A model generated the notes under the pieces. The model made no database searches. It was not told the DNA's origin and saw only the letters and a program-made list of their open reading frames with translations. The position numbers and the translations under genes were made by a program. From a virus (lineage: Duplodnaviria; Heunggongvirae; Uroviricota; Caudoviricetes), in the IMG/VR virus record IMGVR_UViG_2623620505_000001: DNA of 64,000 nucleotides, one strand, 5' to 3'. Shown piece after piece: positions 5,725 to 63,219 of the stretch; position 1 is the stretch's first letter, and each line of letters starts with the position of its first letter.

Positions 5725-7314
5725 ATGTCTCAATATTCAATTCAACAGTCATTAGGTAATGCATCCGGCGTCGCGGTTAGCCCGATCAATGCCGATGCGA
5801 CGTTATCTACCGGTGTTGCATTAAATAGCAGCTTATGGGCTGGTATTGGCGTATTTGCGCGTGGCAAGCCGTTTACTGTTCTTGCGGTTACTGAGTCCAA
5901 TTACGAAGATGTTCTCGGCGAACCGCTGAAGCCGTCTTCCGGCTCACAGTTCGAACCAATTCGCCATGTATACGAAGCTATTCAGCAAACGTCTGGTTAT
6001 GTTGTTCGCGCTGTTCCGGATGATGCGAAGTTCCCGATTATTATGTTCGATGAATCAGGCGAACCGGCTTACAGTGCGTTGCCATACGGTTCTGAAATTG
6101 AACTTGATAGTGGCGAAGCCTTTGCTATCTACGTTGATGATGGTGATCCGTGTATTTCACCTACCCGTGAGTTAACCATCGAAACGGCAACAGCGGACAG
6201 CGCGGGTAATGAACGCTTCCTCTTAAAACTGACCCAGACGACTTCGCTCGGCGTGGTAACGACCCTGGAGACACACACTGTGTCTTTGGCGGAAGAAGCG
6301 AAAGATGACATGGGCCGCTTGTGTTATCTGCCTACGGCTCTGGAAGCCCGTTCTAAATATCTGCGCGCGGTTGTTAATGAAGAGCTGATTTCGACAGCGA
6401 AAGTAACAAACAAAAAATCGTTGGCGTTCACTGGCGGTACCAACGGCGATCAGTCGAAAATCTCAACCGCTGCGTACCTGCGTGCGGTTAAAGTGCTGAA
6501 TAATGCGCCGTACATGTACACCGCTGTTCTTGGCCTGGGCTGCTATGACAATGCGGCTATCACCGCATTAGGTAAAATCTGTGCAGATCGCCTGATTGAT
6601 GGCTTCTTTGATGTCAAACCGACATTGACGTACACGGAAGCGATCTCTGCTGTTGAAGATACCGGTTTACTTGGTACCGATTATGTAAGCTGTGCTGTCT
6701 ATCACTACCCGTTCTCCTGCAAAGACAAATGGACCCAATCCCGTGTGGTCTTTGGTCTGTCTGGCGTGGCGTATGCGGCGAAAGCTCGTGGCGTCAAGAA
6801 AAACTCTGATGTCGGCGGTTGGCATTACTCACCGGCTGGTGAAGAACGTGCCGTCATTGCTCGTGCGTCAATTCAACCGCTGTATCCGGAAGATACCCCG
6901 GACGAAGAAGCAATGGTCAAGGGCCGTCTCAATAAAGTATCTGTTGGCACCTCTGGCCAGATGATCATCGACGATGCTTTAACTTGCTGCACGCAGGATA
7001 ACTATCTGCACTTCCAGCACGTCCCATCCCTGATGAATGCAATCAGCCGTTTCTTTGTCCAGTTAGCCCGACAGATGAAGCATAGCCCGGACGGTATTAC
7101 TGCGGCTGGCCTGACTAAAGGGATGACCAAACTTTTAGATCGCTTTGTCGCCTCCGGCGCTCTGGTGGCTCCTCGTGATCCTGATGCTGACGGTACAGAA
7201 CCGTATGTGCTGAAAGTTACGCAGGCGGAATTCGATAAATGGGAAGTAGTCTGGGCCTGCTGCCCGACTGGCGTAGCCCGTCGTATCCAGGGCGTACCGC
7301 TGCTTATTAAGTAA
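5725..7314 (+). CDS. late structural protein, possibly tail sheath (position of P1 gene 22)
   Basis: 529 aa ORF co-oriented in late operon; assignment by position and size only. Confidence 0.4.
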   Translation: MSQYSIQQSLGNASGVAVSPINADATLSTGVALNSSLWAGIGVFARGKPFTVLAVTESNYEDVLGEPLKPSSGSQFEPIRHVYEAIQQTSGYVVRAVPDDAKFPIIMFDESGEPAYSALPYGSEIELDSGEAFAIYVDDGDPCISPTRELTIETATADSAGNERFLLKLTQTTSLGVVTTLETHTVSLAEEAKDDMGRLCYLPTALEARSKYLRAVVNEELISTAKVTNKKSLAFTGGTNGDQSKISTAAYLRAVKVLNNAPYMYTAVLGLGCYDNAAITALGKICADRLIDGFFDVKPTLTYTEAISAVEDTGLLGTDYVSCAVYHYPFSCKDKWTQSRVVFGLSGVAYAAKARGVKKNSDVGGWHYSPAGEERAVIARASIQPLYPEDTPDEEAMVKGRLNKVSVGTSGQMIIDDALTCCTQDNYLHFQHVPSLMNAISRFFVQLARQMKHSPDGITAAGLTKGMTKLLDRFVASGALVAPRDPDADGTEPYVLKVTQAEFDKWEVVWACCPTGVARRIQGVPLLIK

Positions 7315-7323
7315 GGGAATACA

Positions 7324-8139
7324 ATGAGCAAAAACTTTTTTCAATCCGGGGCATTTTTGGGGAATGGACTGTCTCGTTTCGCTTTGAACTCTGATCCTGT
7401 GCAGCTGATGGAGTCTGCCCGAGCAAGCGCTGAACCGCCAACAGATCCGGTTATTAATAATAATCCGGAACCGGCGGCACAGACTAACGATAACGTTCCA
7501 TCTGCCCAGGCTCCTGAGCAAATCCTGGAAGGGAAAGACGGTAAAGAATGGACCGTCGAACAGGCGCACCAGATGATTCTGGAAGCTGCAAATCGAAGTG
7601 CTATGCAAAATGCGTTGAGTGATGCGGCCGACGCCGTTTTCGCCTGGGCTGATAGCGGTGATCTGACTTTCGACTCCCTTGATGGTTTCGTTCAGGCTAT
7701 CGCTGGTATCTCTGATGACGACGACTCCGAAGTTACAGAAGAACAGGACGATGCCTATAACGAAGCATGGGCAAATGTTGCTGACTTCCTCGCAGCATGC
7801 GGTGTTGATGATGACCTGATCGAAGCACTGGCTGACGATGAAGACGACGACGCAGCTGCTGATGTTGGTGCCTCTATCGCTGGTTTAGATAGCGACGACC
7901 GCGACGAACTGGAAGCGGCGTTTGTTGTTGCTGGCACTTCTGATGAAATGCTGACTGAAGCATTTAAGAAGGTTGTTCGTAACGGTGAGATCAAACTCAT
8001 CCGTAAACGCCTGCGTAAAAAACGTCTGACTGCGGCTCAAAAATCGGCGCTGAAAAAAGCGCGTCGAAAAGCCCAGACCGGCGCGGCAAAACTTGCCCGC
8101 AAAAAGTCAATGAAACTGCGCCGTAAGCGCCTTGGCTAA
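7324..8139 (+). CDS. late protein with strongly acidic core and Lys/Arg-rich C-terminal tail
   Basis: 271 aa; acidic D/E-rich segment (DDDSEVTEEQDD, DDEDDDAAAD) followed by KLIRKRLRKKRL...KLRRKRLG basic tail. Confidence 0.5.
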   Translation: MSKNFFQSGAFLGNGLSRFALNSDPVQLMESARASAEPPTDPVINNNPEPAAQTNDNVPSAQAPEQILEGKDGKEWTVEQAHQMILEAANRSAMQNALSDAADAVFAWADSGDLTFDSLDGFVQAIAGISDDDDSEVTEEQDDAYNEAWANVADFLAACGVDDDLIEALADDEDDDAAADVGASIAGLDSDDRDELEAAFVVAGTSDEMLTEAFKKVVRNGEIKLIRKRLRKKRLTAAQKSALKKARRKAQTGAAKLARKKSMKLRRKRLG

Positions 8140-8145
8140 AGGAGG

Positions 8146-8170
8146 AGGCCGGAGAACTCCGGCCTTTAAC
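8146..8170 (+). terminator. possible stem-loop terminator after the acidic/basic protein gene
   Basis: GGCCGGAG aact CTCCGGCC stem followed by TTTAACTT (weak U-tract). Confidence 0.35.
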
Positions 8171-8174
8171 TTGA

Positions 8175-8756
8175 ATGGCACCTATTCCTTATGGGGTTTA
8201 CAGCCAGGCTGACGGTGTATCGCCATATCTGAAAGTTACTTTAACGAACTCTCAGTACCAGGTTACCGGATATATCAGCCAGGGAGCGGCAATGAACATG
8301 GCCCAGAATTGGGAAGCGCCGTTTACCGGTATGTCCATGGGATCTGTTGCTGGTGCCTTCAGTGGTTTTGCGCAGGTTGGTACTGAAACAACGTCGGTTG
8401 CCCGTTGGAACAGCTTAATGGTTTGGGAAGGGGGAACACCGCCGACTTTCACGCTGCCAGTAACTTTCATCGCTTTGTTTGACCCATTCACGGAGGTTTC
8501 AGGAGCTATCGCCGCATTGTCAGCGATGATTAGCCCGGAACTTAAAGATGCCAGTATTGGTGGTCGAATCCCGGAGCGTGTGACGCTAAACATTGGTCGC
8601 CGGATCAACATCATTGATGTCGCTATCCAGGACATAAGTTTCGATCTCGATGCGCCCAGGGACAGCAATGGACATTTCCTGAAAAACACCGTCAACCTCC
8701 AGTTGACCGGTTCTTCGATATATAACAGCTCCGATATTGTTCGGGCGTTCCAGTAA
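8175..8756 (+). CDS. hypothetical late/structural protein
   Basis: 193 aa ORF in co-oriented late cluster. Confidence 0.45.
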   Translation: MAPIPYGVYSQADGVSPYLKVTLTNSQYQVTGYISQGAAMNMAQNWEAPFTGMSMGSVAGAFSGFAQVGTETTSVARWNSLMVWEGGTPPTFTLPVTFIALFDPFTEVSGAIAALSAMISPELKDASIGGRIPERVTLNIGRRINIIDVAIQDISFDLDAPRDSNGHFLKNTVNLQLTGSSIYNSSDIVRAFQ

Positions 8757-8767
8757 AAGGATTTTAT

Positions 8768-9277
8768 ATGGGGCACAATAACACTAAGGGAAACCGTAAA
8801 TTTATTAAGGGCCGCTATACTGCCAACGCGGCCAAAGGCGAACGACTGGTATCTTCTGAATTCCAGCTCACTTTTGCAGGCCATGAAGATATCAGCGTAC
8901 TGGTTCGCACGTCGCAAATTCCTGAAATGACCCGCGAGGATGTGGAGGACTATGGTCCGAATGGTGTGAAGTTCAACCAGCACGGTCCAATTCGAAACTC
9001 AGGGGAAATCCAGGTCCAGTGCGTGGAGACTATCGAAGGCGATATTCTTCAGTTCATTAAAGATCGCATTGCGGCGAAGGACTATGTTGATATCACGATG
9101 GCTGCTACCCCTGAATCCAAATCTTCCGGGGTTAACGCTGTGACAAAAGCTGCTACAACAATTGAAATGTTGGACTGCAAAATCTACAGTGATGCAATCG
9201 ACTTTAGTACCGAAGATGTGACTGCCGCTGTGCGCCCGTCACTTCGTATCGTCTACAACTGGATTGAGTGGGATTAA
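8768..9277 (+). CDS. hypothetical late/structural protein
   Basis: 169 aa ORF with RBS-like AAAGGA upstream; followed by a strong intrinsic terminator. Confidence 0.45.
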   Translation: MGHNNTKGNRKFIKGRYTANAAKGERLVSSEFQLTFAGHEDISVLVRTSQIPEMTREDVEDYGPNGVKFNQHGPIRNSGEIQVQCVETIEGDILQFIKDRIAAKDYVDITMAATPESKSSGVNAVTKAATTIEMLDCKIYSDAIDFSTEDVTAAVRPSLRIVYNWIEWD

Positions 9278-9296
9278 GAGTCATCCCTTGTATTTT

Positions 9297-9321
9297 AAAG
9301 CTCCTTCGGGAGCTTTTTTAT
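9297..9321 (+). terminator. rho-independent terminator
   Basis: AAAGCTCC ttcg GGAGCTTT stem-loop followed by TTTTTTAT. Confidence 0.8.
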
Positions 9322-9393
9322 TTGGAGAGGAAAGGGTGCATTGAGGATACCTGACACACGAAGAGTGGCGAGGATCTCTCCTCGCCAGGTCTC

Positions 9394-9549
9394 TTACCTT
9401 TCAGATTCGTAGGCTGTGAAGACAGTGACCTCCGTCTGGCCGGTTCGGATTCGTACCTCGCAGAGGTCTTTCCTCGTTACCAGTGCCGTCACAATGACGG
9501 TTAAACAGATGACGATCAGAGCGATTAATATCGCTTTTTGCTGCTTCAT
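9394..9549 (-). CDS. hok: Hok/Gef-family type I toxin (51 aa membrane peptide); not in supplied ORF track (below length cut-off)
   Basis: Translated by hand: MKQQKAILIALIVICLTVIVTALVTRKDLCEVRIRTGQTEVTVFTAYESER; C-terminal LTRK.LCE.R.R....EV..F.AYES matches Hok family; AGGAG RBS 9 nt upstream. Confidence 0.75.
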   Translation of the reverse strand: MKQQKAILIALIVICLTVIVTALVTRKDLCEVRIRTGQTEVTVFTAYESER

Positions 9550-9607
9550 AGCCTGCTTCTCCTTGACCTTTTGGTCGGTAAGAGGCTAATCTACGTATGC
9601 TAAGCAT
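9401..9607 (-). CDS. mok: mok-like overlapping reading frame (translational coupler of hok)
   Basis: 68-aa ORF overlapping hok in another frame, as in hok/mok/sok loci. Inference from arrangement. Confidence 0.4.
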   Translation of the reverse strand: MLSIRRLASYRPKGQGEAGYEAAKSDINRSDRHLFNRHCDGTGNEERPLRGTNPNRPDGGHCLHSLRI

Positions 9608-9730
9608 AGATATTGCCTCAGATTAATGTTAAGCGTCTTGCAGGACGCGTAATGTTATCTGGGGCTTTCTTCTATCTGCTTTTCGGGTAATGCCTGAAGC
9701 AGATAGCCTCAAGCACCCGCAACGATTGTA

Positions 9731-9976
9731 TCAATGTCTGGCTTTTTTTCTATAGAAATCACCTGGAAGGGTGAATATCCACATCAGAAGAAATGTTGCA
9801 GCAAACATGATCCCTAATGGCCAGACCGCGCCAAAGAAAATCCATACTAAGATCTTCTCTGCTTGTTCTTTGCGGTCGATATCGACAAGCATTTTTCGGC
9901 TGATCATGTATACACAGAAGCCAATACAAACATATCCTGCAAAAGCGATCGCTAACTGTAAAAAATCAGATTGCAT
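9731..9976 (-). CDS. small two-TM membrane protein (track ORF 9731..10057 trimmed to internal ATG because upstream part overlaps repL)
   Basis: Hydrophobic segments LAIAFAGYVCIGFCVYMI and ILVWIFFGAVWPLGIMFAATFLLMWIF. Confidence 0.4.
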   Translation of the reverse strand: MQSDFLQLAIAFAGYVCIGFCVYMISRKMLVDIDRKEQAEKILVWIFFGAVWPLGIMFAATFLLMWIFTLPGDFYRKKARH

Positions 9977-10026
9977 CTCCGACCTCAAACTGAAAACGCC
10001 AGGTAACTCCAGATTAGAGCAATCTA

Positions 10027-10872
10027 TCACCCTCTGAATCCTGCCGGTATACCCCATTGTTCGTTATCTTTATTTTTGGCTAAAACCGCATTAAGAGCTT
10101 CGTTTACCGTCATGCAATGCGGCAGATTATCGAAGTTTGATACCCCGCCAATATCAGGAGAACGCTTGTTCTTCAGGTAAGCATATTTCCGCGCTGCCGC
10201 CTCTACTTTCTGCTTGAACTCATGTTTTTGTGCGCGTTTTTTGGATAACCGCAGATTGTCAGCCTTTGCTTTTGTCTCAGCGATCCATGAAGTCAATTTT
10301 TTGAGTCTGATCGTTCCGGCACCGCCGGAAACTGATCTTTTTGTTTTTTTAACTTGTGACTTCTTATTCTTTATTGCCACGTCATCCTGACATGGGGAGG
10401 GGGTATCATTTTGACATGGGGGTGTGGATAAAAAATTAAATAAAGCCAATGTCTTAGCGAGAACAGCTTTAACCTTGGTTGCCGCTGAAGAGATCTTTAA
10501 TTTGCTTTCAATCAGCGCATTTTTGGCTTGTTGTGCGAAGGCCAAAAAGGATGGTGTAAACCGGTACAGGTTAGCGCGACGTTCACGGTGATCGCCGATA
10601 ACAATCTCTACAGATAGAATTCCTTTGTTTACAGCTTCACGGAATGCACGAACGACGGTTGATTGGCTATAACCAGTTTCTGCCGCGATCAGGCGGTGGG
10701 GCTTGTGAATGAAGTATTCACTGGTTGTTGCCGCGAGATTTGCACATTGCGACAGGATATGCCCGGCGCTACGGGATAGACCGGAGTGTGTTACAAAGAA
10801 GGCCAATTCATAGCCAGAAAAAGTAAAATCGCTCATCGTTATACAGCTCAGGAAAGTGACTTTAGCCAGCAT
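10027..10872 (-). CDS. repL: lytic replication protein RepL
   Basis: 281 aa (size of P1 RepL as I recall), downstream of kilA and of a C1-operator-like site, as in the P1 kilA-repL operon. Confidence 0.8.
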   Translation of the reverse strand: MLAKVTFLSCITMSDFTFSGYELAFFVTHSGLSRSAGHILSQCANLAATTSEYFIHKPHRLIAAETGYSQSTVVRAFREAVNKGILSVEIVIGDHRERRANLYRFTPSFLAFAQQAKNALIESKLKISSAATKVKAVLAKTLALFNFLSTPPCQNDTPSPCQDDVAIKNKKSQVKKTKRSVSGGAGTIRLKKLTSWIAETKAKADNLRLSKKRAQKHEFKQKVEAAARKYAYLKNKRSPDIGGVSNFDNLPHCMTVNEALNAVLAKNKDNEQWGIPAGFRG

Positions 10873-10901
10873 TACAATGCTGGTGGTTCTTACTACGTCT
10901 G

Positions 10902-11702
10902 TTAGCGCGTTGCCGCGACAGGTACCAGCACACCAGCATCAAGCAATCGCTTCATCAGCCACTGCTGACCTTTGCCGGTTATACGAGTCGTGAAAGAAAT
11001 CCTGCTTCCATTGCTTGTATCGATCACGGTTTCTTTAAGGGTGAAATACCCACGGGATATGTATTCTTGTTTGGGGACGTTCCTGCGTTCACCGGTTGCG
11101 ATCAGAATTCCGTTATCACGCAACCAGGTGAAGAGATAGTTTTGGCCCAGGCCGAGCACTTTGGCATAGTTGCCGATTAGAACCCCGCTGGCGGTAGCAA
11201 CGCGTTCGGCGAATTCGACTTTAGGTGCATCCATCAGCATTTTTTGCTCCAGCCGTTGCTTTTGCTCTGCCAGGTCAGCAGCCAAACGGAGAGCTTCTGG
11301 GAGGCTCTTCGGAATAGCAGGTTGTAATCTTCCGGCTCGATAGTCGATAAATGTCTGGTTTACCTTCAGCCGAAACGCGGGAGAAATCCAGCCTGCGTAC
11401 TCCACTGCGAGCAATTCATGGGCAAAAGTGCCGCCGCCACGGCCTTCGAACGAAACTATGCAATTCTGCATAGTCTCTTTTTCAAGCTCTTCGATGAGCT
11501 GTTTGGCTGACAGCGTTCTTAGCCATTGAGCTGGCGCTTTATGGGCACCGAGTCCGCTCGCTCTGTGTAGAGCATTAAGGTTGTAACGGCCAGCGCGGTC
11601 GGTCGTAATTTCAACACCACAAATAACGGGCAGAGTGGTTGAAGGATCGACATTTTGATGAAGGTTTGATATATTCATATCCGCATTGAATGTTTGTTGC
11701 AT
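10902..11702 (-). CDS. kilA: KilA (KilA-N domain plus antirepressor-type C-terminal domain)
   Basis: 266 aa; C-terminal 130 aa clearly homologous to C-terminus of neighbouring Ant (LPEALRLAA.LAEQK...GKGQQWL). Confidence 0.8.
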   Translation of the reverse strand: MQQTFNADMNISNLHQNVDPSTTLPVICGVEITTDRAGRYNLNALHRASGLGAHKAPAQWLRTLSAKQLIEELEKETMQNCIVSFEGRGGGTFAHELLAVEYAGWISPAFRLKVNQTFIDYRAGRLQPAIPKSLPEALRLAADLAEQKQRLEQKMLMDAPKVEFAERVATASGVLIGNYAKVLGLGQNYLFTWLRDNGILIATGERRNVPKQEYISRGYFTLKETVIDTSNGSRISFTTRITGKGQQWLMKRLLDAGVLVPVAATR

Positions 11703-11772
11703 TTTTTCTCCAAATTTGCATCAACCTTCAATCACCAGCTCGAAATGGTGATTCTTTGCACTTAGAAAACGA

Positions 11773-11789
11773 AATTTATTAGAGCAAAT
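11773..11789 (-). promoter_or_regulatory. C1 operator-like site upstream of kilA-repL
   Basis: Reverse strand reads TTTGCTCTAATAAATTT vs known P1 C1 operator consensus ATTGCTCTAATAAATTT. Confidence 0.65.
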
Positions 11790-11866
11790 TTTTCTGACTC
11801 GATCCAGATCGGGTTGGACGATCTGCTCAGAAACCTGCCAGTTTGCTGGCAGGTTTTTTTCTTTTG

Positions 11867-13129: not shown

Positions 13130-13330
13130 TCACTAACAGGTTTAACAACCTGCTACCCGCTGCTAAACAGGTGGCAGGACGTGACGGGGTTAGCAGACTG
13201 GCGTTAGTGAAACCAGCAGGCCGAAGCCTCCCCATCACGCCCCACCATAATTTGGGCGTAACGCGGTTTTACGGACACAAAAATACCGCAATATCGGATA
13301 TCTGCGGTTGTCCGCACTAACATTCAGGCT
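13130..13330 (-). ncRNA. c4: region expected to encode c4-like antisense repressor RNA (exact ends not determined)
   Basis: Known: in P1 c4 RNA lies between the operator-controlled promoter and icd. Seen: operator-like site at 13434-13450 and repeated CTGCTAAC/TAGCAG complementary elements. Boundaries are inference. Confidence 0.3.
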
Positions 13331-13433
13331 GCTAAACCCGGTCGCAGAATTTGCTACGACGGCGGAACTATAAGCCTGAACGATTAAAAGGTCAATATGA
13401 TGCGAAAAGATAGCATTCGCGACTTAAAAATAC

Positions 13434-60150: not shown

Positions 60151-60236
60151 TTATGCTTCCTTTCGTATAAAACTCTTTTTGACGCGAGGGTAACGAAAGT
60201 CACATGTCAAAAGGCCCGGAACGGGCAAGCAATCAA

Positions 60237-60689
60237 TCAGATACGTGCGGATGTGGCATTACCGTAATGACGGTGCTGACGGACCACCTTATTGAAAAGT
60301 TGACGCGCCATCACCCAAGGCTGGTGCTCCCGGCGTTCCTTTTCGTCCTGCGTCATATAGAGTTCGTTCTGGAGTTTTTCATCAAACCGGCGCGGAGCGC
60401 GGCTGCGGCGAAAGAATTCAGGATTCAGAGAGTGGATCTGAAATCTACGTGGGCGTGTACTGTCATCAATCAAAACAGACGAATACTTAGACACAGCGAT
60501 AGCCTTTAAGCGCAGATAAACATCGCGCTTATCGACATCCAGATGCGGGTATTCCTTTTCAAGAATTGCTGCGAGTTCTTTCGCTGATAGAAGAGATTTA
60601 GTGCGGATCATGTAATCCGCAATCTCGTACGATGTTATTCGTGAGTGATTTATTTCCATGAAGTGGCGTCCCTGCCAGTTAAGTAACAT
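60237..60689 (-). CDS. lpa: late promoter activator Lpa (gene 10)
   Basis: 150 aa immediately upstream of pacA, C1 operator-like site upstream. Confidence 0.75.
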   Translation of the reverse strand: MLLNWQGRHFMEINHSRITSYEIADYMIRTKSLLSAKELAAILEKEYPHLDVDKRDVYLRLKAIAVSKYSSVLIDDSTRPRRFQIHSLNPEFFRRSRAPRRFDEKLQNELYMTQDEKERREHQPWVMARQLFNKVVRQHRHYGNATSARI

Positions 60690-60759
60690 CCTGTCACCTA
60701 CTGATTAGCCCATGTCAACTAATCAACGTCGAATATAATACCCTCGATTAAAGAAATAG

Positions 60760-60776
60760 CAATACATTAGAGCAAT
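60760..60776 (-). promoter_or_regulatory. C1 operator-like site upstream of lpa
   Basis: Reverse strand ATTGCTCTAATGTATTG. Confidence 0.6.
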
Positions 60777-60777
60777 T

Positions 60778-61821
60778 TTATCTAACGCTCGACGAGTGAC
60801 TTGTGATAGCGCCGACTCCAAGCGCGTAATCAAAGAACAATCGTTGATGCATCGCCAGCCTACCGTGCGTCTTCTCCCAATTATCGCGGTCACGCTCAAT
60901 ATCACGCTGGCATGACTGGCACAGAGGAATAGCATAAATGTCATGCGCGCATAATCGACTATGACGAACGATATAAGGCGTAATGTGAGCGCCAGCTCCC
61001 GCAGCTCCACAGCCACAGCATGGACGGGAAGCCACAAAGTCCATGTACTCGGGCAATTTTAGCGATTGAAGTTTTGGTATTTTGAAATGCGCCATATCTG
61101 GGTCGGAGTCAACATCCACAGGGCATACTTTTGCACGCATTGGCGCGGCGCGTTCTTCCATCATCTGAACATATGCTGTAGCGCGATCGTCATACGGGCG
61201 AATATCCGCCTCTTTCAGAGGTCCGCTATCCTGCGGAGTAGCCTTCATCTTATTTATTGATATGCGGCAGACTTCTTCCGGCATCAGGTGCATCATGTTG
61301 CGCATGAAAGCCCACCAGCACAGTTCCTGAATACTTAAATCATGGCCATCTGAAAGCCCCATTTCCTGACGGGCGACATCCAGTATCCAGTTAACGCGAT
61401 TATTATGCAGCGTTTCTTTCAGCTCATTAAAACCACGCATCCGGTAATGGTTATCGTGATGCCAGCACAACAACACCGCGCTCTTGTCTCGTTCAGCGTG
61501 GACAATATGGTTGTCACACCAACTACGATCTGCGGCCTGGCATTGACCCTCTTTCCTACGCAACCACGCCACCAGCGAGTCAATTCCACCAATACGGCGA
61601 AACAGTTCATCGCTGTTAAAAAACGGCTGCAACGCCTCATTTGTTGCCATGGTTTGCTCGGTAACAACGAGGCCGTCTTCCATGTGCTCGATTAACTCAC
61701 GCGGCACCGGCTCCATAATAAATTTACGGCCAGCCTCCACCAGCTTTCTGACCTCCTGATCCACTTTGAACGTGGCGAGGCCAAGCTCTTTCTGTACAAA
61801 GGGAGTAATTATGGCTTTCAC
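60778..61821 (-). CDS. pdcB: PdcB-like protein
   Basis: 347 aa between doc and lpa; position only. Confidence 0.5.
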
Positions 61822-61848
61822 ATCACACCTTTAATCACTGATTGGGCT

Positions 61849-62049
61849 TTATCTGCTGCCCGGCATTCTCTGTTTAAGCACAACCATTTCCTGACGGCAT
61901 AACACAGCAATAGCGGTCCTGACTCCAATTTGCTTACCAACCAGGTATTGCTTTACCTTGCGGCGGCTCACGCCATCAAGAAGCATCTTTAACGCTTCAC
62001 GGGACAACTTGTTGTATTTACGTGCCATTAATCTACTCCGCAGAACCAT
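61849..62049 (-). CDS. small basic protein (position of P1 pdcA)
   Basis: 66-aa ORF, start uncertain. Confidence 0.35.
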
Positions 62050-62413
62050 ACAATCTACGTAACGTGTCGGCGACAGAAGATACAGATATCTCGCCAGTCG
62101 CAGCGCCTACAGTAAGGTCTGCCAGTTCAGGTGAATCAAATACCTGCACCCCGTTACGGCGTAGAAATAGCAGCGCACTGTTTAGCGCGGTACGCTTATT
62201 GGCATCATTGAATATATGCCCTCTCGCTGTAGCCACCAGGTAGGTGGCGGAGACTTCGAAAAGGTCGGTGATCTCTTCGTAGGCAACTCTGGCCTGAACT
62301 CTCCCGATAATGGCCTCTGCCCTACCCGGATCAGACATTCCCGGCAGGCCGCCGTAGCGGCTTATATTCGCATCATGAAGCGCAACAAGTTCTTCCGGTG
62401 ATATATGTCTCAT
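62033..62413 (-). CDS. doc: Doc toxin (Fic-fold kinase)
   Basis: 126 aa MRHISPEEL...[23 protein letters not shown]; Fic-like motif; overlaps phd stop. Confidence 0.9.
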
Positions 62414-62634
62414 TATCGGTTAACCAGTTCCTTGTTGGTGGAGTCCAGGGTGTCAAACAGGGATGCAAATTCAGCATCCAGCGCCGCTTTTTTGTAGGCT
62501 TCGAAAGTAGCCTTGCTGACAATTACTGCTGGCTCACGGCCTCTGCGGGTGATTTCAACCTCTTCCCCGGCTTCAACATTGTTGAGCACTTCAGAAAGGT
62601 TGCCACGCGCGGTACGGAAGTTAATGGATTGCAT
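62413..62634 (-). CDS. phd: Phd antitoxin
   Basis: [73 protein letters not shown]. Confidence 0.9.
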
Positions 62635-62706
62635 AAACACCTCGTGTACTCGTTATGTGTACACAATTATAAACTTCACAGGCATAAAGCACCAGCACTT
62701 TGCAGC

Positions 62707-63096
62707 TTAAATAACCGGACAATCATCAAATTCCCCACTTCGGGCATCATTGATGACATGAGTGATCACACCAAAAACAGCATTACTGCCCGTGTATCCA
62801 TCGTCATCTACTGGTAACGCCTCTTTCTTCCCGGTGCTTAAGTCCTCCAGGTGCTGGCGCGGATACTTCCTGTATCTCTTTATGCGATATTCACCCTCCA
62901 TAGCGCACACAAGCAGAGAACCATCAACCGGAGTAAGCGAGGAATCAACCACCAGCAAAGCACCCTGCAATATTCCCTCACGGTGATGGCTATCAGCTGC
63001 CCGCATGAAGTAGGTCGCTGAAGGATGTCTAATTATCTGCTGATCAAGAGAAATTCGGCTTTCAACATAATCCGCCGCAGGAGAAGGGAAGCCCAT
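62707..63096 (-). CDS. humD: HumD (UmuD-prime-like S24 peptidase-fold protein)
   Basis: 129 aa with YFMRAADSH and LLVVDSS motifs resembling UmuD. Confidence 0.75.
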   Translation of the reverse strand: MGFPSPAADYVESRISLDQQIIRHPSATYFMRAADSHHREGILQGALLVVDSSLTPVDGSLLVCAMEGEYRIKRYRKYPRQHLEDLSTGKKEALPVDDDGYTGSNAVFGVITHVINDARSGEFDDCPVI

Positions 63097-63219
63097 AGCG
63101 TTTTACCTCAATGATACTGTTTATTCATACAGTATACATTGAAAAGGCATAGTTTGTGAAAGCGGGGTTTGTAGGCGCGCCACGCTGGGGGCTAATCACA
63201 TTTCTCCCCCATCTTGCCG

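What the first reader, a model, noticed from the sequence alone, without database searches (positions are those of the whole stretch)
9394..9720. Hidden hok/mok/sok-like type I toxin-antitoxin locus between late genes and repL
A 51-codon Hok-family toxin (LVTRKDLCEVRIRTGQTEVTVFTAYES) is encoded on the minus strand but missing from the ORF track, overlapped by a mok-like frame (9401-9607). Upstream there is a 10-bp-arm inverted repeat (9673-9706) of the kind found in hok mRNA fold-back elements. The antisense Sok-like RNA would be on the + strand around 9560-9660 but I cannot place it exactly. I do not recall a hok locus in P1 itself.
Basis: partly seen in the sequence, partly recalled or inferred. 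Interest (0 to 1): 0.6.

Follow-up and report, generated by a model that had tools for sequence, protein, structure and literature searches.

The report
Intact hok/sok toxin-antitoxin in P1-like plasmid
This is a complete, ordinary hok/mok/sok "killer peptide plus antisense RNA" cassette in a P1-like phage-plasmid, where it replaces three genes of reference P1; databases already annotate it in hundreds of such plasmids, so it is real but not new.

Summary
Window 9394-9549 (-) encodes a 51-aa Hok/Gef toxin (Pfam PF01848, E=1.3e-21). The overlapping mok frame (9401-9607) and the 10-bp inverted repeat are also present. The Rfam hok/sok leader model matches 9544-9718 (-) at 114 bits (gathering score 59).

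Every canonical element maps:
- hok promoter and start (~9718)
- tac (9707-9718) pairing with fbi (9337-9349), with compensatory changes in 31 homologues
- ucb masking the mok Shine-Dalgarno
- an antisense Sok gene on the + strand (promoter 9563-9592, RNA ~9599-9669): a free 5' tail, a GC-clamped hairpin and a U tract

Reference P1 lacks the locus. A 693-bp module (9320-10012: hok/sok plus a small membrane-protein ORF) replaces pmgF-rlfB-rlfA. This module is in 254 PLSDB plasmids, against 99 with the P1-type module, and in 229 of 5,426 complete E. coli genomes. RefSeq annotates it as "hokD". The exact peptide occurs on at least 999 public contigs. Venturini et al. 2019 noted the substitution as "2 orfs including antibacterial toxin".

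The closest tested relative is hokW-sokW of Stx phage Sp5/933W. The most likely role is post-segregational killing, alongside phd-doc, which is also in the window. Real, known kind, low novelty.

The parts
9725..9752 (-). hok promoter: -35 TAGAAA, 16-nt spacer, TG-extended -10 TACAAT. The predicted start is ~9718.
   Evidence: Consensus scan. The -10 sits at the same place as TAGAAT of 933W hokW (alignment). Homology to other hok loci begins at 9718-9720.
9334..9718 (-). Full-length hok mRNA: the conserved transcription unit of ~385 nt. The exact 3' end is not determined and may run to the hairpin at 9297-9316.
   Evidence: BLAST against 46 hok loci: the conserved block spans 9720..9333. 86% identical to the 933W hokW locus over 9334-9730. 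MFE -155 kcal/mol, z=-8.
9707..9718 (-). tac (translational activator element), GGGUGCUUGAGG, at the 5' end of the hok mRNA.
   Evidence: Pairs with 9337-9349 in the MFE fold and in the RNAalifold consensus. Pairs with ucb in the Rfam model structure.
9672..9706 (-). Arms 9697-9706 and 9672-9681.
   Evidence: It is the 13-bp stem of the Rfam RF01794 consensus.
9661..9668 (-). ucb / mok anti-Shine-Dalgarno, AAAGCCCC. It masks the mok SD in the full-length fold and pairs with tac in the open form.
   Evidence: C55/C56/C58 pair with G103/G102/G100. (model helix 1-8 with AAAGCCCC). Invariant in 31 homologues.
9401..9607 (-). mok reading frame: 68 codons, SD GAGG at 9616-9619, ATG at 9605-9607. It is in the +1 frame relative to hok.
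   Evidence: The ATG is invariant in 31 homologues and is the same ATG as the annotated mokW.
9582..9586 (-). dcb, GCCUC, which pairs with the mok SD in the processed (open) form.
   Evidence: Rfam consensus helix GaGGC...GCCuC aligned to the window. The role is as described for R1 in PMC9841398.
9394..9549 (-). hok toxin gene, 51 aa, with SD AAGGAG at 9559-9564.
   Evidence: Pfam PF01848 E=1.3e-21. NCBIfam NF007279 Hok family, E=1.7e-13 at 50.2 bits, below that model's curated cut-off of 73. The exact peptide is named HokD / HokC/D in public sets on at least 999 contigs.
9366..9387 (-). 3' stem-loop (9-bp perfect stem) between the hok stop codon and fbi. Inferred to protect the processed mRNA from exonucleases.
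   Evidence: I5. Conserved with compensatory changes, columns 353-360/372-379. The role is inferred from R1 (PMC9841398).
9337..9349 (-). fbi (fold-back inhibitory element), CCUCAAUGCACCC.
   Evidence: 12 bp plus one bulge with tac, -19.8 kcal/mol. Compensatory U:A to C:G in 8 sequences, and G:C to A:U at the last pair in Photorhabdus.
9563..9592 (+). sok promoter: -35 TTGACC (9563-9568), 18-nt spacer, -10 TAATCT (9587-9592).
   Evidence: Read from the sequence. These blocks are conserved in all 31 homologues. The simple consensus scan missed it because the -10 matches only 3 of 6 positions.
9599..9669 (+). Sok antisense RNA, ~71 nt: free 5' tail, long hairpin GCCUCAGAU...AUCUGGGGC, then UUUCUUCU. 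It covers the mok start codon and SD.
   Evidence: Coordinates transferred from the annotated sokW of 933W. Fold -35 kcal/mol, z=-6.7. The same architecture is seen in all homologues, and the antisense strand is always more stable than the sense strand.
9297..9316 (.). Hairpin terminator shared with P1 (the end of bplB). A possible convergent terminator for the hok mRNA.
   Evidence: P1 homology ends at 9319, directly after its T run.
9320..10012 (.). 693-bp module that replaces the 1,826 bp carrying pmgF-rlfB-rlfA in reference P1. It holds hok/sok plus a small membrane-protein ORF (9731-10030/10057, -).
   Evidence: BLAST of the window against NC_005856. The module is in 254 PLSDB plasmids.

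Best explanation
Window 9334-9752 is an intact, canonical hok/mok/sok type I toxin-antitoxin cassette carried by a P1-like phage-plasmid.

Shown from the sequence:
- A promoter at 9752-9725 starts a ~385-nt hok mRNA at about 9718.
- Its 5' end (tac) pairs with its 3' end (fbi, 9337-9349).
- The ucb box masks the mok Shine-Dalgarno.
- A Sok gene on the opposite strand (promoter 9563-9592, RNA ~9599-9669) overlaps the mok start region.

Inferred from the R1 hok/sok paradigm:
- The full-length mRNA is stable but inert.
- Slow 3' trimming removes fbi, and tac re-pairs with ucb. This exposes the mok ribosome-binding site and the Sok target.
- In cells that keep the plasmid, abundant short-lived Sok pairs with the target and RNase III destroys the duplex.
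- In cells that lose the plasmid, Sok decays first. Mok is then translated, Hok translation is coupled to it, and the 51-aa Hok peptide depolarises the inner membrane and kills the cell.

The most likely biological role here is stabilisation of the low-copy plasmid prophage. It would act as a second addiction module beside phd-doc, which is also present in the window.
For: - Pfam HOK_GEF E=1.3e-21.
- Rfam RF01794 at 114 bits over the full model, 9544-9718 (-).
- hok, mok and sok coordinates coincide column for column with the annotated hokW, mokW and sokW of 933W.
- tac/fbi pairing appears in the MFE fold (z=-8) and in the RNAalifold consensus of 31 homologues from 9 genera. Compensatory changes support it. 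A cognate duplex of -15 to -24 kcal/mol forms in every homologue.
- The mok ATG is invariant.
- The sok -35/-10 blocks are conserved.
- The Sok strand folds as tail plus terminator hairpin plus U tract in all homologues, and is always more stable than the sense strand.
- The cassette is at least 99% conserved in 133 plasmid records, which argues for selection.
- The Hok peptide differs at 5 of 51 residues from HokW. HokW's toxicity and its neutralisation by sokW were shown experimentally (PMC8621323).
- The mechanism is as summarised for R1 in PMC9841398.
- phd-doc is present at about 62030-62640.
Against: - No expression or phenotype data exist for this copy.
- The sok -10 (TAATCT) is a poor consensus match with an 18-nt spacer, and the automatic scan missed it.
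- The mok frame is +1 relative to hok here, whereas it is in frame in the tested hokW. Coupling in this arrangement is therefore inferred from R1, not from hokW.
- The predicted fold of a 3'-truncated RNA changes the 5' end but does not reproduce the textbook open form exactly.
- P1-type elements already have phd-doc, so the extra benefit of a second killing module is unproven.
- Many chromosomal hok loci are known to be inactive.
Confidence: 0.85

Rival explanations
1. Same cassette and same molecular mechanism, but its main role is in the lytic cycle. On induction Sok is lost, and Hok damages the membrane and helps lysis and phage release, as reported for hokW-sokW of Stx phage Sp5. The location may matter: hok lies directly downstream of, and co-oriented with, the C1-repressed kilA-repL operon. 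Read-through transcription after induction could interfere with the convergent sok promoter.
For: In Sp5, mitomycin C abolished sokW RNA, HokW appeared in a RecA-dependent way, and a hokW-sokW deletion halved phage release (PMC8621323). The window cassette is 86% identical to that locus. kilA, repL, the small ORF and hok are all on the - strand with no strong terminator between them. Only a 5-bp hairpin lies at 9774-9759.
Against: The Sp5 effect was about 2-fold, and its trigger is unknown. P1-type phages have their own holin, antiholin and endolysin. Nothing here tests read-through or promoter interference. This role does not exclude post-segregational killing.
Confidence: 0.2
2. The cassette serves mainly as an abortive-infection or exclusion device against other phages. 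Infection shuts off host transcription, Sok decays, and Hok kills the cell before the invader completes its cycle.
For: R1 hok/sok on a high-copy plasmid reduced T4 plating efficiency and plaque size (cited in PMC8621323). [quoted passage not shown]
Against: That preprint found no enrichment of hok next to defence systems. The R1 effect was modest and needed high copy number, whereas this element is low copy. There are no data for this copy.
Confidence: 0.1
3. The cassette is an inactive relic, like several chromosomal hok loci, carried along by hitch-hiking.
For: Decayed copies do exist in the homologue set. One E. coli copy has a mutated tac (L012), and one has foreign sequence in place of fbi (L019). 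The 1-nt insertion that shifts mok into the +1 frame could in principle disturb coupling.
Against: The promoter, tac, ucb, mok SD and ATG, dcb, hok SD and ORF, 3' stem-loop, fbi, sok promoter and Sok terminator are all intact. The +1-frame arrangement is the one used by R1 itself (my recollection, not checked here). The module is at least 99% identical in 133 plasmids and outnumbers the P1-type module.
Confidence: 0.05

Closest known systems
hokW-mokW-sokW of Stx2 phages 933W / Sp5 (AF125520; tested in PMC8621323)
   Same: 86% nucleotide identity over the whole cassette, 9334-9730. The hok start and stop, the mok ATG and the Sok 5' end fall in the same alignment columns. Both carry the same ~18-nt extension of the Sok/sokT hairpin. 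The Hok peptides differ at 5 of 51 residues.
   Different: mokW is an in-frame N-terminal extension of hokW (70 codons). Here a 1-nt insertion (TTGACC in place of TTG-CC) puts mok in the +1 frame with 68 codons. The host element is a lambdoid integrated prophage rather than a plasmid prophage, and the flanks are unrelated.
hokD (relF) / hokC (gef) chromosomal and cryptic-prophage loci of E. coli and Shigella
   Same: The same subfamily: PGAP names this peptide HokD. The peptide differs at 4 of 51 residues from the Shigella flexneri HokD-type copies, and the cassette is 84-88% identical in DNA to the E. coli and Shigella HokD-type copies. The regulatory elements are the same.
   Different: Some chromosomal copies are decayed, with a mutated tac or a disrupted 3' end (L012 and L019). 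The copy here is complete and plasmid-borne.
hok/sok (parB) of plasmid R1, the founding member
   Same: The same architecture and the same regulatory logic: tac/fbi, ucb/dcb, mok-hok coupling, a cis-antisense Sok and RNase III (PMC9841398). From memory, mok overlaps hok out of frame in R1 as it does here.
   Different: The peptide is far more diverged: HokW and R1 Hok are 44% identical according to PMC8621323. Sok here is about 71 nt, against 64 nt recalled for R1, because of the longer hairpin.
phd-doc, the addiction module of phage P1
   Same: The same presumed biological job, killing cells that lose the plasmid prophage. It is present in this window too.
   Different: It is a type II protein-protein system, unrelated in sequence and mechanism, and lies ~52 kb away in the window.

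Membership tests
[quoted passage not shown] | A ~50-aa Hok/Gef peptide with an N-terminal membrane helix and the conserved TRKxLCE...EV.AF..YE C-terminal part | tested here: met
   Pfam PF01848 E=1.3e-21, 76 bits against a cut-off of 22, covering 41 of 42 profile positions. Aligned with 30 homologues.
[quoted passage not shown] | An upstream overlapping mok reading frame with its own SD, whose translation runs over the hok start region | tested here: met
   ATG 9607 with GAGG 8 nt upstream; 68 codons, ending 7 nt before the hok stop. The ATG is invariant in 31 homologues. Translational coupling itself is not testable here.
[quoted passage not shown] | The hok mRNA leader structure (tac stem, sokT hairpin, mok SD/dcb stem) as modelled by Rfam RF01794 | tested here: met
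   114.3 bits against a gathering score of 59, full model 1-157, E=9e-27. It is the only such hit in the 64-kb window.
[quoted passage not shown] | Long-range 5'-3' tac/fbi pairing, supported by covariation | tested here: met
   Present in the MFE fold. RNAalifold pairs columns 13-18 with 412-417, with U:A to C:G in 8 sequences. Duplexes form in all 31 homologues, and a second compensatory pair, G:C to A:U, occurs in Photorhabdus. Cognate duplexes are only slightly better than non-cognate ones (-19.9 vs -18.3 kcal/mol), because the element is highly conserved.
[quoted passage not shown] | A cis-encoded antisense Sok RNA: promoter inside the 5' part of mok, a single-stranded 5' tail, a terminator hairpin, complementary to the mok start region | tested here: met
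   Sequence features only. -35 TTGACC and -10 TAATCT are conserved. The start maps to 9599 from the sokW annotation. The fold is tail plus hairpin plus U tract, z=-6.7. The antisense strand is more stable than the sense strand in 31 of 31 homologues. Transcription itself was not tested.
[quoted passage not shown] | Hok is toxic, Sok neutralises it, and the duplex is cleaved by RNase III | not testable with these tools
   Shown for the homologue hokW-sokW (PMC8621323) and for R1 (PMC9841398), but not for this copy.
[quoted passage not shown] | Post-segregational killing or plasmid stabilisation phenotype | not testable with these tools
   Needs plasmid-loss assays.
Reference phage P1 gene set (NC_005856) | The locus is part of the reference P1 genome between bplB and repL | tested here: not met
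   Reference P1 has pmgF-rlfB-rlfA (1,826 bp) where the window has 9320-10012. P7 also lacks the cassette. Other P1-like records do carry it: MH422554, phi456 and vB_EcoM-Ro157c2YLVW.

The most novel reading that the evidence does not exclude
In P1-like phage-plasmids the hok/sok cassette may be wired into the lytic switch. It replaces rlfA-rlfB directly downstream of, and co-oriented with, the C1-repressed kilA-repL operon. The swap junction also cuts the C1 operator Orlf. After induction, read-through transcription could run against the sok promoter and lower Sok, so that Hok is released as an induction-coupled aid to lysis or as a fail-safe. In that case it would be more than a plain plasmid-addiction module. 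The fact that this variant outnumbers the reference-P1 arrangement would then reflect a fitness gain in the phage life cycle.
Probability: 0.12. Interest if true: 0.45.

Novelty: already known. Interest (0 to 1): 0.15.

Why it matters
It matters little beyond annotation. hok/sok is the textbook type I toxin-antitoxin system. This exact peptide is already named HokD in RefSeq and seen on about a thousand or more contigs.

The useful points are practical:
- Reference P1 is not representative at this locus. In PLSDB, records carrying this hok/sok module outnumber records carrying the reference-P1 module by about 2.5 to 1 (254 against 99).
- These elements therefore carry two unrelated addiction modules, hok/sok and phd-doc. 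That is relevant to the persistence of P1-like plasmids that spread resistance genes.
- Phage-style ORF callers miss the 51-aa toxin and the Sok RNA, as several deposited phage records show.

Tried and rejected
- **Chance ORF.** Rejected by the Pfam and Rfam scores.
Rejected. That stretch contains the sok promoter. The RNA starts near 9599 and ends near 9669.
- **The 9672-9706 inverted repeat as the fold-back inhibitory element.** Rejected. It is the 5' leader hairpin; the fbi is at 9337-9349.
- **Rfam hit as the antisense RNA itself.** Rejected. The RF01794 'sok' model aligns to the hok-mRNA sense strand and ends in the hok AUG. The + strand gives only 21 bits, at a shifted position.
- **Automatic promoter scan for sok.** It found nothing on the + strand. 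The promoter was placed by homology and conservation instead.
- **Pfam and NCBIfam on Mok and on the neighbouring 108-aa ORF.** No hits.
- **Fold of a 3'-truncated mRNA, 9372-9718.** The 5' end refolds once fbi is removed, but the textbook tac/ucb open form is not cleanly reproduced. I treat this as weak support only.
- **Literature searches for an explicit description of hok/sok in P1-like elements.** They found only indirect mentions.
- **Not run.** No large protein-homology search, structure prediction or metagenome scan was run, because the answer did not depend on them.

Full report
**1. The observation**

The six-frame ORF list contains a 51-codon ORF at 9394..9549 on the minus strand. 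Its product is MKQQKAILIALIVICLTVIVTALVTRKDLCEVRIRTGQTEVTVFTAYESER.

The 10-bp perfect inverted repeat is real. Its arms are 9697-9706 and 9672-9681, one base off the stated left end.

The peptide matches Pfam HOK_GEF (PF01848) with E=1.3e-21, at 76 bits against a cut-off of 22. It also matches the NCBIfam Hok models at low E-values, but below their curated cut-offs.

Rfam RF01794 ('sok') matches 9544-9718 on the minus strand over its full length, at 114.3 bits (gathering score 59, E=9e-27). It is one of only three gathering-level RNA hits in the whole window. One caveat applies. The model aligns to the hok-mRNA sense strand and ends in the hok AUG, so it detects the hok leader with the Sok target, not the antisense RNA itself.

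**2. Anatomy**

*hok promoter and transcription unit.* A promoter-like site lies at 9752-9725 on the minus strand: TAGAAA, 16 nt, then a TG-extended TACAAT. It places the start near 9718, which is position 1 of the Rfam model (GGGUGCUUGAGG).

BLAST of the region against 46 hok loci recovered from one genome per species shows that similarity starts at 9718-9720 and stops at 9333-9334. The conserved unit is therefore the transcript.

*Folding of the mRNA.* The 394-nt RNA from 9718 to 9325 folds at -155 kcal/mol, z=-8 against shuffles. The 5' end (9718-9707) pairs with 9349-9337 near the 3' end. This is the tac/fbi fold-back described for R1 (PMC9841398).

I aligned the window with 30 homologues from Escherichia, Shigella, Kluyvera, Citrobacter, Photorhabdus, Erwinia, Kalamiella, an unnamed enterobacterium and phage 933W.
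- RNAalifold recovers the tac/fbi helix, with U:A changed to C:G in eight sequences.
- A per-sequence duplex calculation gives a 5'-3' duplex of -15 to -24 kcal/mol in every homologue. In Photorhabdus a second compensatory change appears: GAGG/CCUC becomes GAGA/UCUC.
- Cognate duplexes are only marginally better than non-cognate ones (-19.9 vs -18.3 kcal/mol), because the element is so conserved.

In the full-length fold the invariant box AAAGCCCC (9668-9661, ucb) pairs with the mok Shine-Dalgarno GAGG (9619-9616). In the Rfam consensus structure the same box pairs with tac instead, and the mok SD pairs with GCCUC (9586-9582, dcb). Both mutually exclusive conformations of the R1 model are therefore encoded here.

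A 9-bp perfect stem-loop (9366-9387) lies between the hok stop codon and fbi. It is conserved with compensatory changes.

*Sok.* Phage 933W (AF125520) annotates hokW, mokW and sokW. Through the alignment, the hokW start and stop map to 9549 and 9394. The mokW ATG maps to 9607. sokW maps to 9599-9669 on the plus strand.

Upstream on the plus strand lie TTGACC (9563-9568), an 18-nt spacer and TAATCT (9587-9592). These blocks are conserved in all 31 sequences. The consensus scan missed them because the -10 matches only 3 of 6 positions.

The RNA from 9599 folds as a free 5' tail, then a long GC-clamped hairpin (GCCUCAGAU...AUCUGGGGC), then UUUCUUCU. The energy is -35 kcal/mol, z=-6.7.

The same tail-hairpin-U-tract layout is found on the antisense strand of every homologue. 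In all of them the antisense strand folds more stably than the sense strand. That is expected if G:U pairs are tolerated on the Sok strand, and it argues for a transcribed plus-strand RNA.

In Sp5, sokW RNA was detected with a probe that corresponds to window 9628-9599 (PMC8621323).

*mok.* The ATG is invariant, but the reading frame is not.
- In most homologues, including hokW and the hokC type, it is an in-frame 19-codon extension of hok.
- In the window lineage and two other homologues a 1-nt difference puts it in the +1 frame. Here it has 68 codons; in the two others (Kluyvera genomosp. 3 and Enterobacteriaceae bacterium G50) it ends 43 nt before the hok stop.
- In some homologues it is a 19-codon ORF.

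What is conserved is translation into the hok start region, not a Mok protein.

**3. Context**

The window is a P1-like phage-plasmid. Region 7300-11800 is 99.3% identical to MH422554 'Punavirus P1' and 97-98% identical to P1 and P7 outside the locus.

Reference P1 (NC_005856) matches 7300-9319 and 10013-11798. In between, it carries 1,826 bp with pmgF, rlfB and rlfA, where the window has 693 bp.
- The left junction lies directly after the T run of the bplB terminator.
- The right junction lies inside the C1 operator Orlf. The window keeps ATTGCTCTAAT and then diverges.

The 693-bp module holds the hok cassette plus a small ORF with hydrophobic segments (9731-10057). That ORF has no family match.

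The variant is nonetheless common:
- The 693-bp module is at least 80% covered in 254 PLSDB plasmids, and 133 records match at 99% identity or more.
- The P1-type module is in 99 plasmids.
- The hok module is in 229 of 5,426 complete E. coli genomes.

RefSeq annotates the locus as 'hokD: type I toxin-antitoxin system toxin HokD'. The exact peptide is on at least 999 contigs under that name.

The phd-doc addiction operon of P1 is also present in the window, at about 62030-62640.

**4. Mechanism**

Shown here: all cis elements of the R1 paradigm are present, intact and evolutionarily constrained.

Inferred from established knowledge (summarised in PMC9841398, and PMC8621323):
- The full-length mRNA is locked by tac/fbi, with the mok SD masked.
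- 3' trimming opens it.
- Sok binds the opened form, and RNase III cleaves the duplex.
- When the plasmid, and with it the unstable Sok, is lost, Mok and then Hok are translated, and Hok depolarises the membrane.

For a low-copy plasmid prophage the most natural role is post-segregational killing, redundant with phd-doc.

Two alternative roles use the same molecular device:
- Help with lysis and phage release on induction, as measured for hokW-sokW in Sp5 (about 2-fold).
- Exclusion of other phages, as reported for R1 hok/sok against T4 (cited).

An inactive relic is unlikely, given the intact elements and the tight conservation.

**5. Comparison with what is known, and novelty**

The closest tested relative is hokW-sokW: 86% DNA identity and 5 of 51 residue differences. 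The main difference is the mok frame.

The family is textbook material. A recent catalogue lists 44,248 Hok homologues, including thousands in phages and prophages (bioRxiv 10.1101/2025.08.07.668861).

For P1-like elements, two papers touch this region:
- Venturini et al. [quoted passage not shown]
- A 2022 survey lists rlfA-rlfB-pmgF as one of eight variable regions, without naming hok (PMC9603915).

One paper describes a plasmid that carries this module (LR882977) as having only the 'P1 addiction system' (PMC8085198; match). I found no paper that spells out the complete hok/mok/sok anatomy in P1-like phage-plasmids, or that notes its majority status. That is a small descriptive gap, not a discovery.

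**6. Verdict**

Novelty: already known. Interest: 0.15.

Noticed in passing
window 10013-10029 (- strand): The right junction of the module swap lies inside the P1 C1 operator Orlf (Op55). The window keeps ATTGCTCTAAT and then diverges (CTGGAG, where P1 has TATAAC). Repressor control downstream of repL may therefore differ from P1.
   Followed up: partly
window 9731-10057 (-), likely start GTG at 10030: A small ORF with hydrophobic segments (108 aa from the ATG; public records mostly call a 99-aa form) travels with hok in the 693-bp module. It has no Pfam or NCBIfam match. The GTG of the 99-aa form overlaps the repL stop codon (GTGA), which suggests translational coupling to repL. The hok promoter overlaps its 3' end.
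   Followed up: partly
window 9372-9381: GGATCTCTCC, in the loop and 3' arm of the hok 3' stem-loop, is exactly the 10-bp target duplication reported for an IS186B insertion in the P1-like plasmid pSvP1 (PMC6906374). IS186 therefore hit this hok 3' hairpin there, between the hok stop codon and fbi.
   Followed up: partly
alignment A1 (window 9549-9607 and homologues): The mok ATG is invariant, but its frame relative to hok differs between homologues: an in-frame 19-codon extension, a +1 frame of 55-68 codons, or a 19-codon ORF. The change is driven by 1-nt indels that also alter the sok -35 (TTGACC vs TTG-CC).
   Followed up: yes
window 9544-9718 (-): Rfam RF01794 is named 'sok antitoxin', but its model is on the hok-mRNA sense strand and ends in the hok AUG. 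The true antisense strand scores only 21 bits, at a shifted position. Hits to this family mark the hok leader, not the Sok gene.
   Followed up: yes
window 13167-13252 and 13321-13373 (-): C4 antisense RNA (RF01695, 70 bits) and its a1/b1 targets (RF03163, 55.5 bits), which belong to the P1 ImmI immunity region.
   Followed up: no
window about 60180-63149 (-): 97.9% identical to P1 humD-phd-doc-pdcA-pdcB-lpa, so the element carries the type II addiction module phd-doc as well as hok/sok. No tRNA genes were found anywhere in the window.
   Followed up: partly
L012 and L019 (E. coli chromosomal hok loci): These are decayed homologues. L012 has a mutated 5' tac (GACTGCATGTGG). L019 has unrelated sequence where fbi should be, possibly an insertion element, though this was not identified.
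   Followed up: no
L014 (Acinetobacter idrijaensis, 275-bp contig), L025 (Xanthomonas pisi, 431-bp contig), L050 (a gut MAG): These are near-identical enterobacterial hok cassettes on very short contigs (or, for L050, a short contig of a gut MAG) of unrelated taxa. L014 is 99% identical to the window. They look like assembly contamination rather than true hosts.
   Followed up: no
phage records OR339795 (phi456), MH445380/1, MH160767: Deposited P1-like phage genomes carry this cassette at 98.5-99.6% identity but leave hok unannotated or label it 'hypothetical protein'. MH422554 labels the hok ORF 'MokW'.
   Followed up: partly
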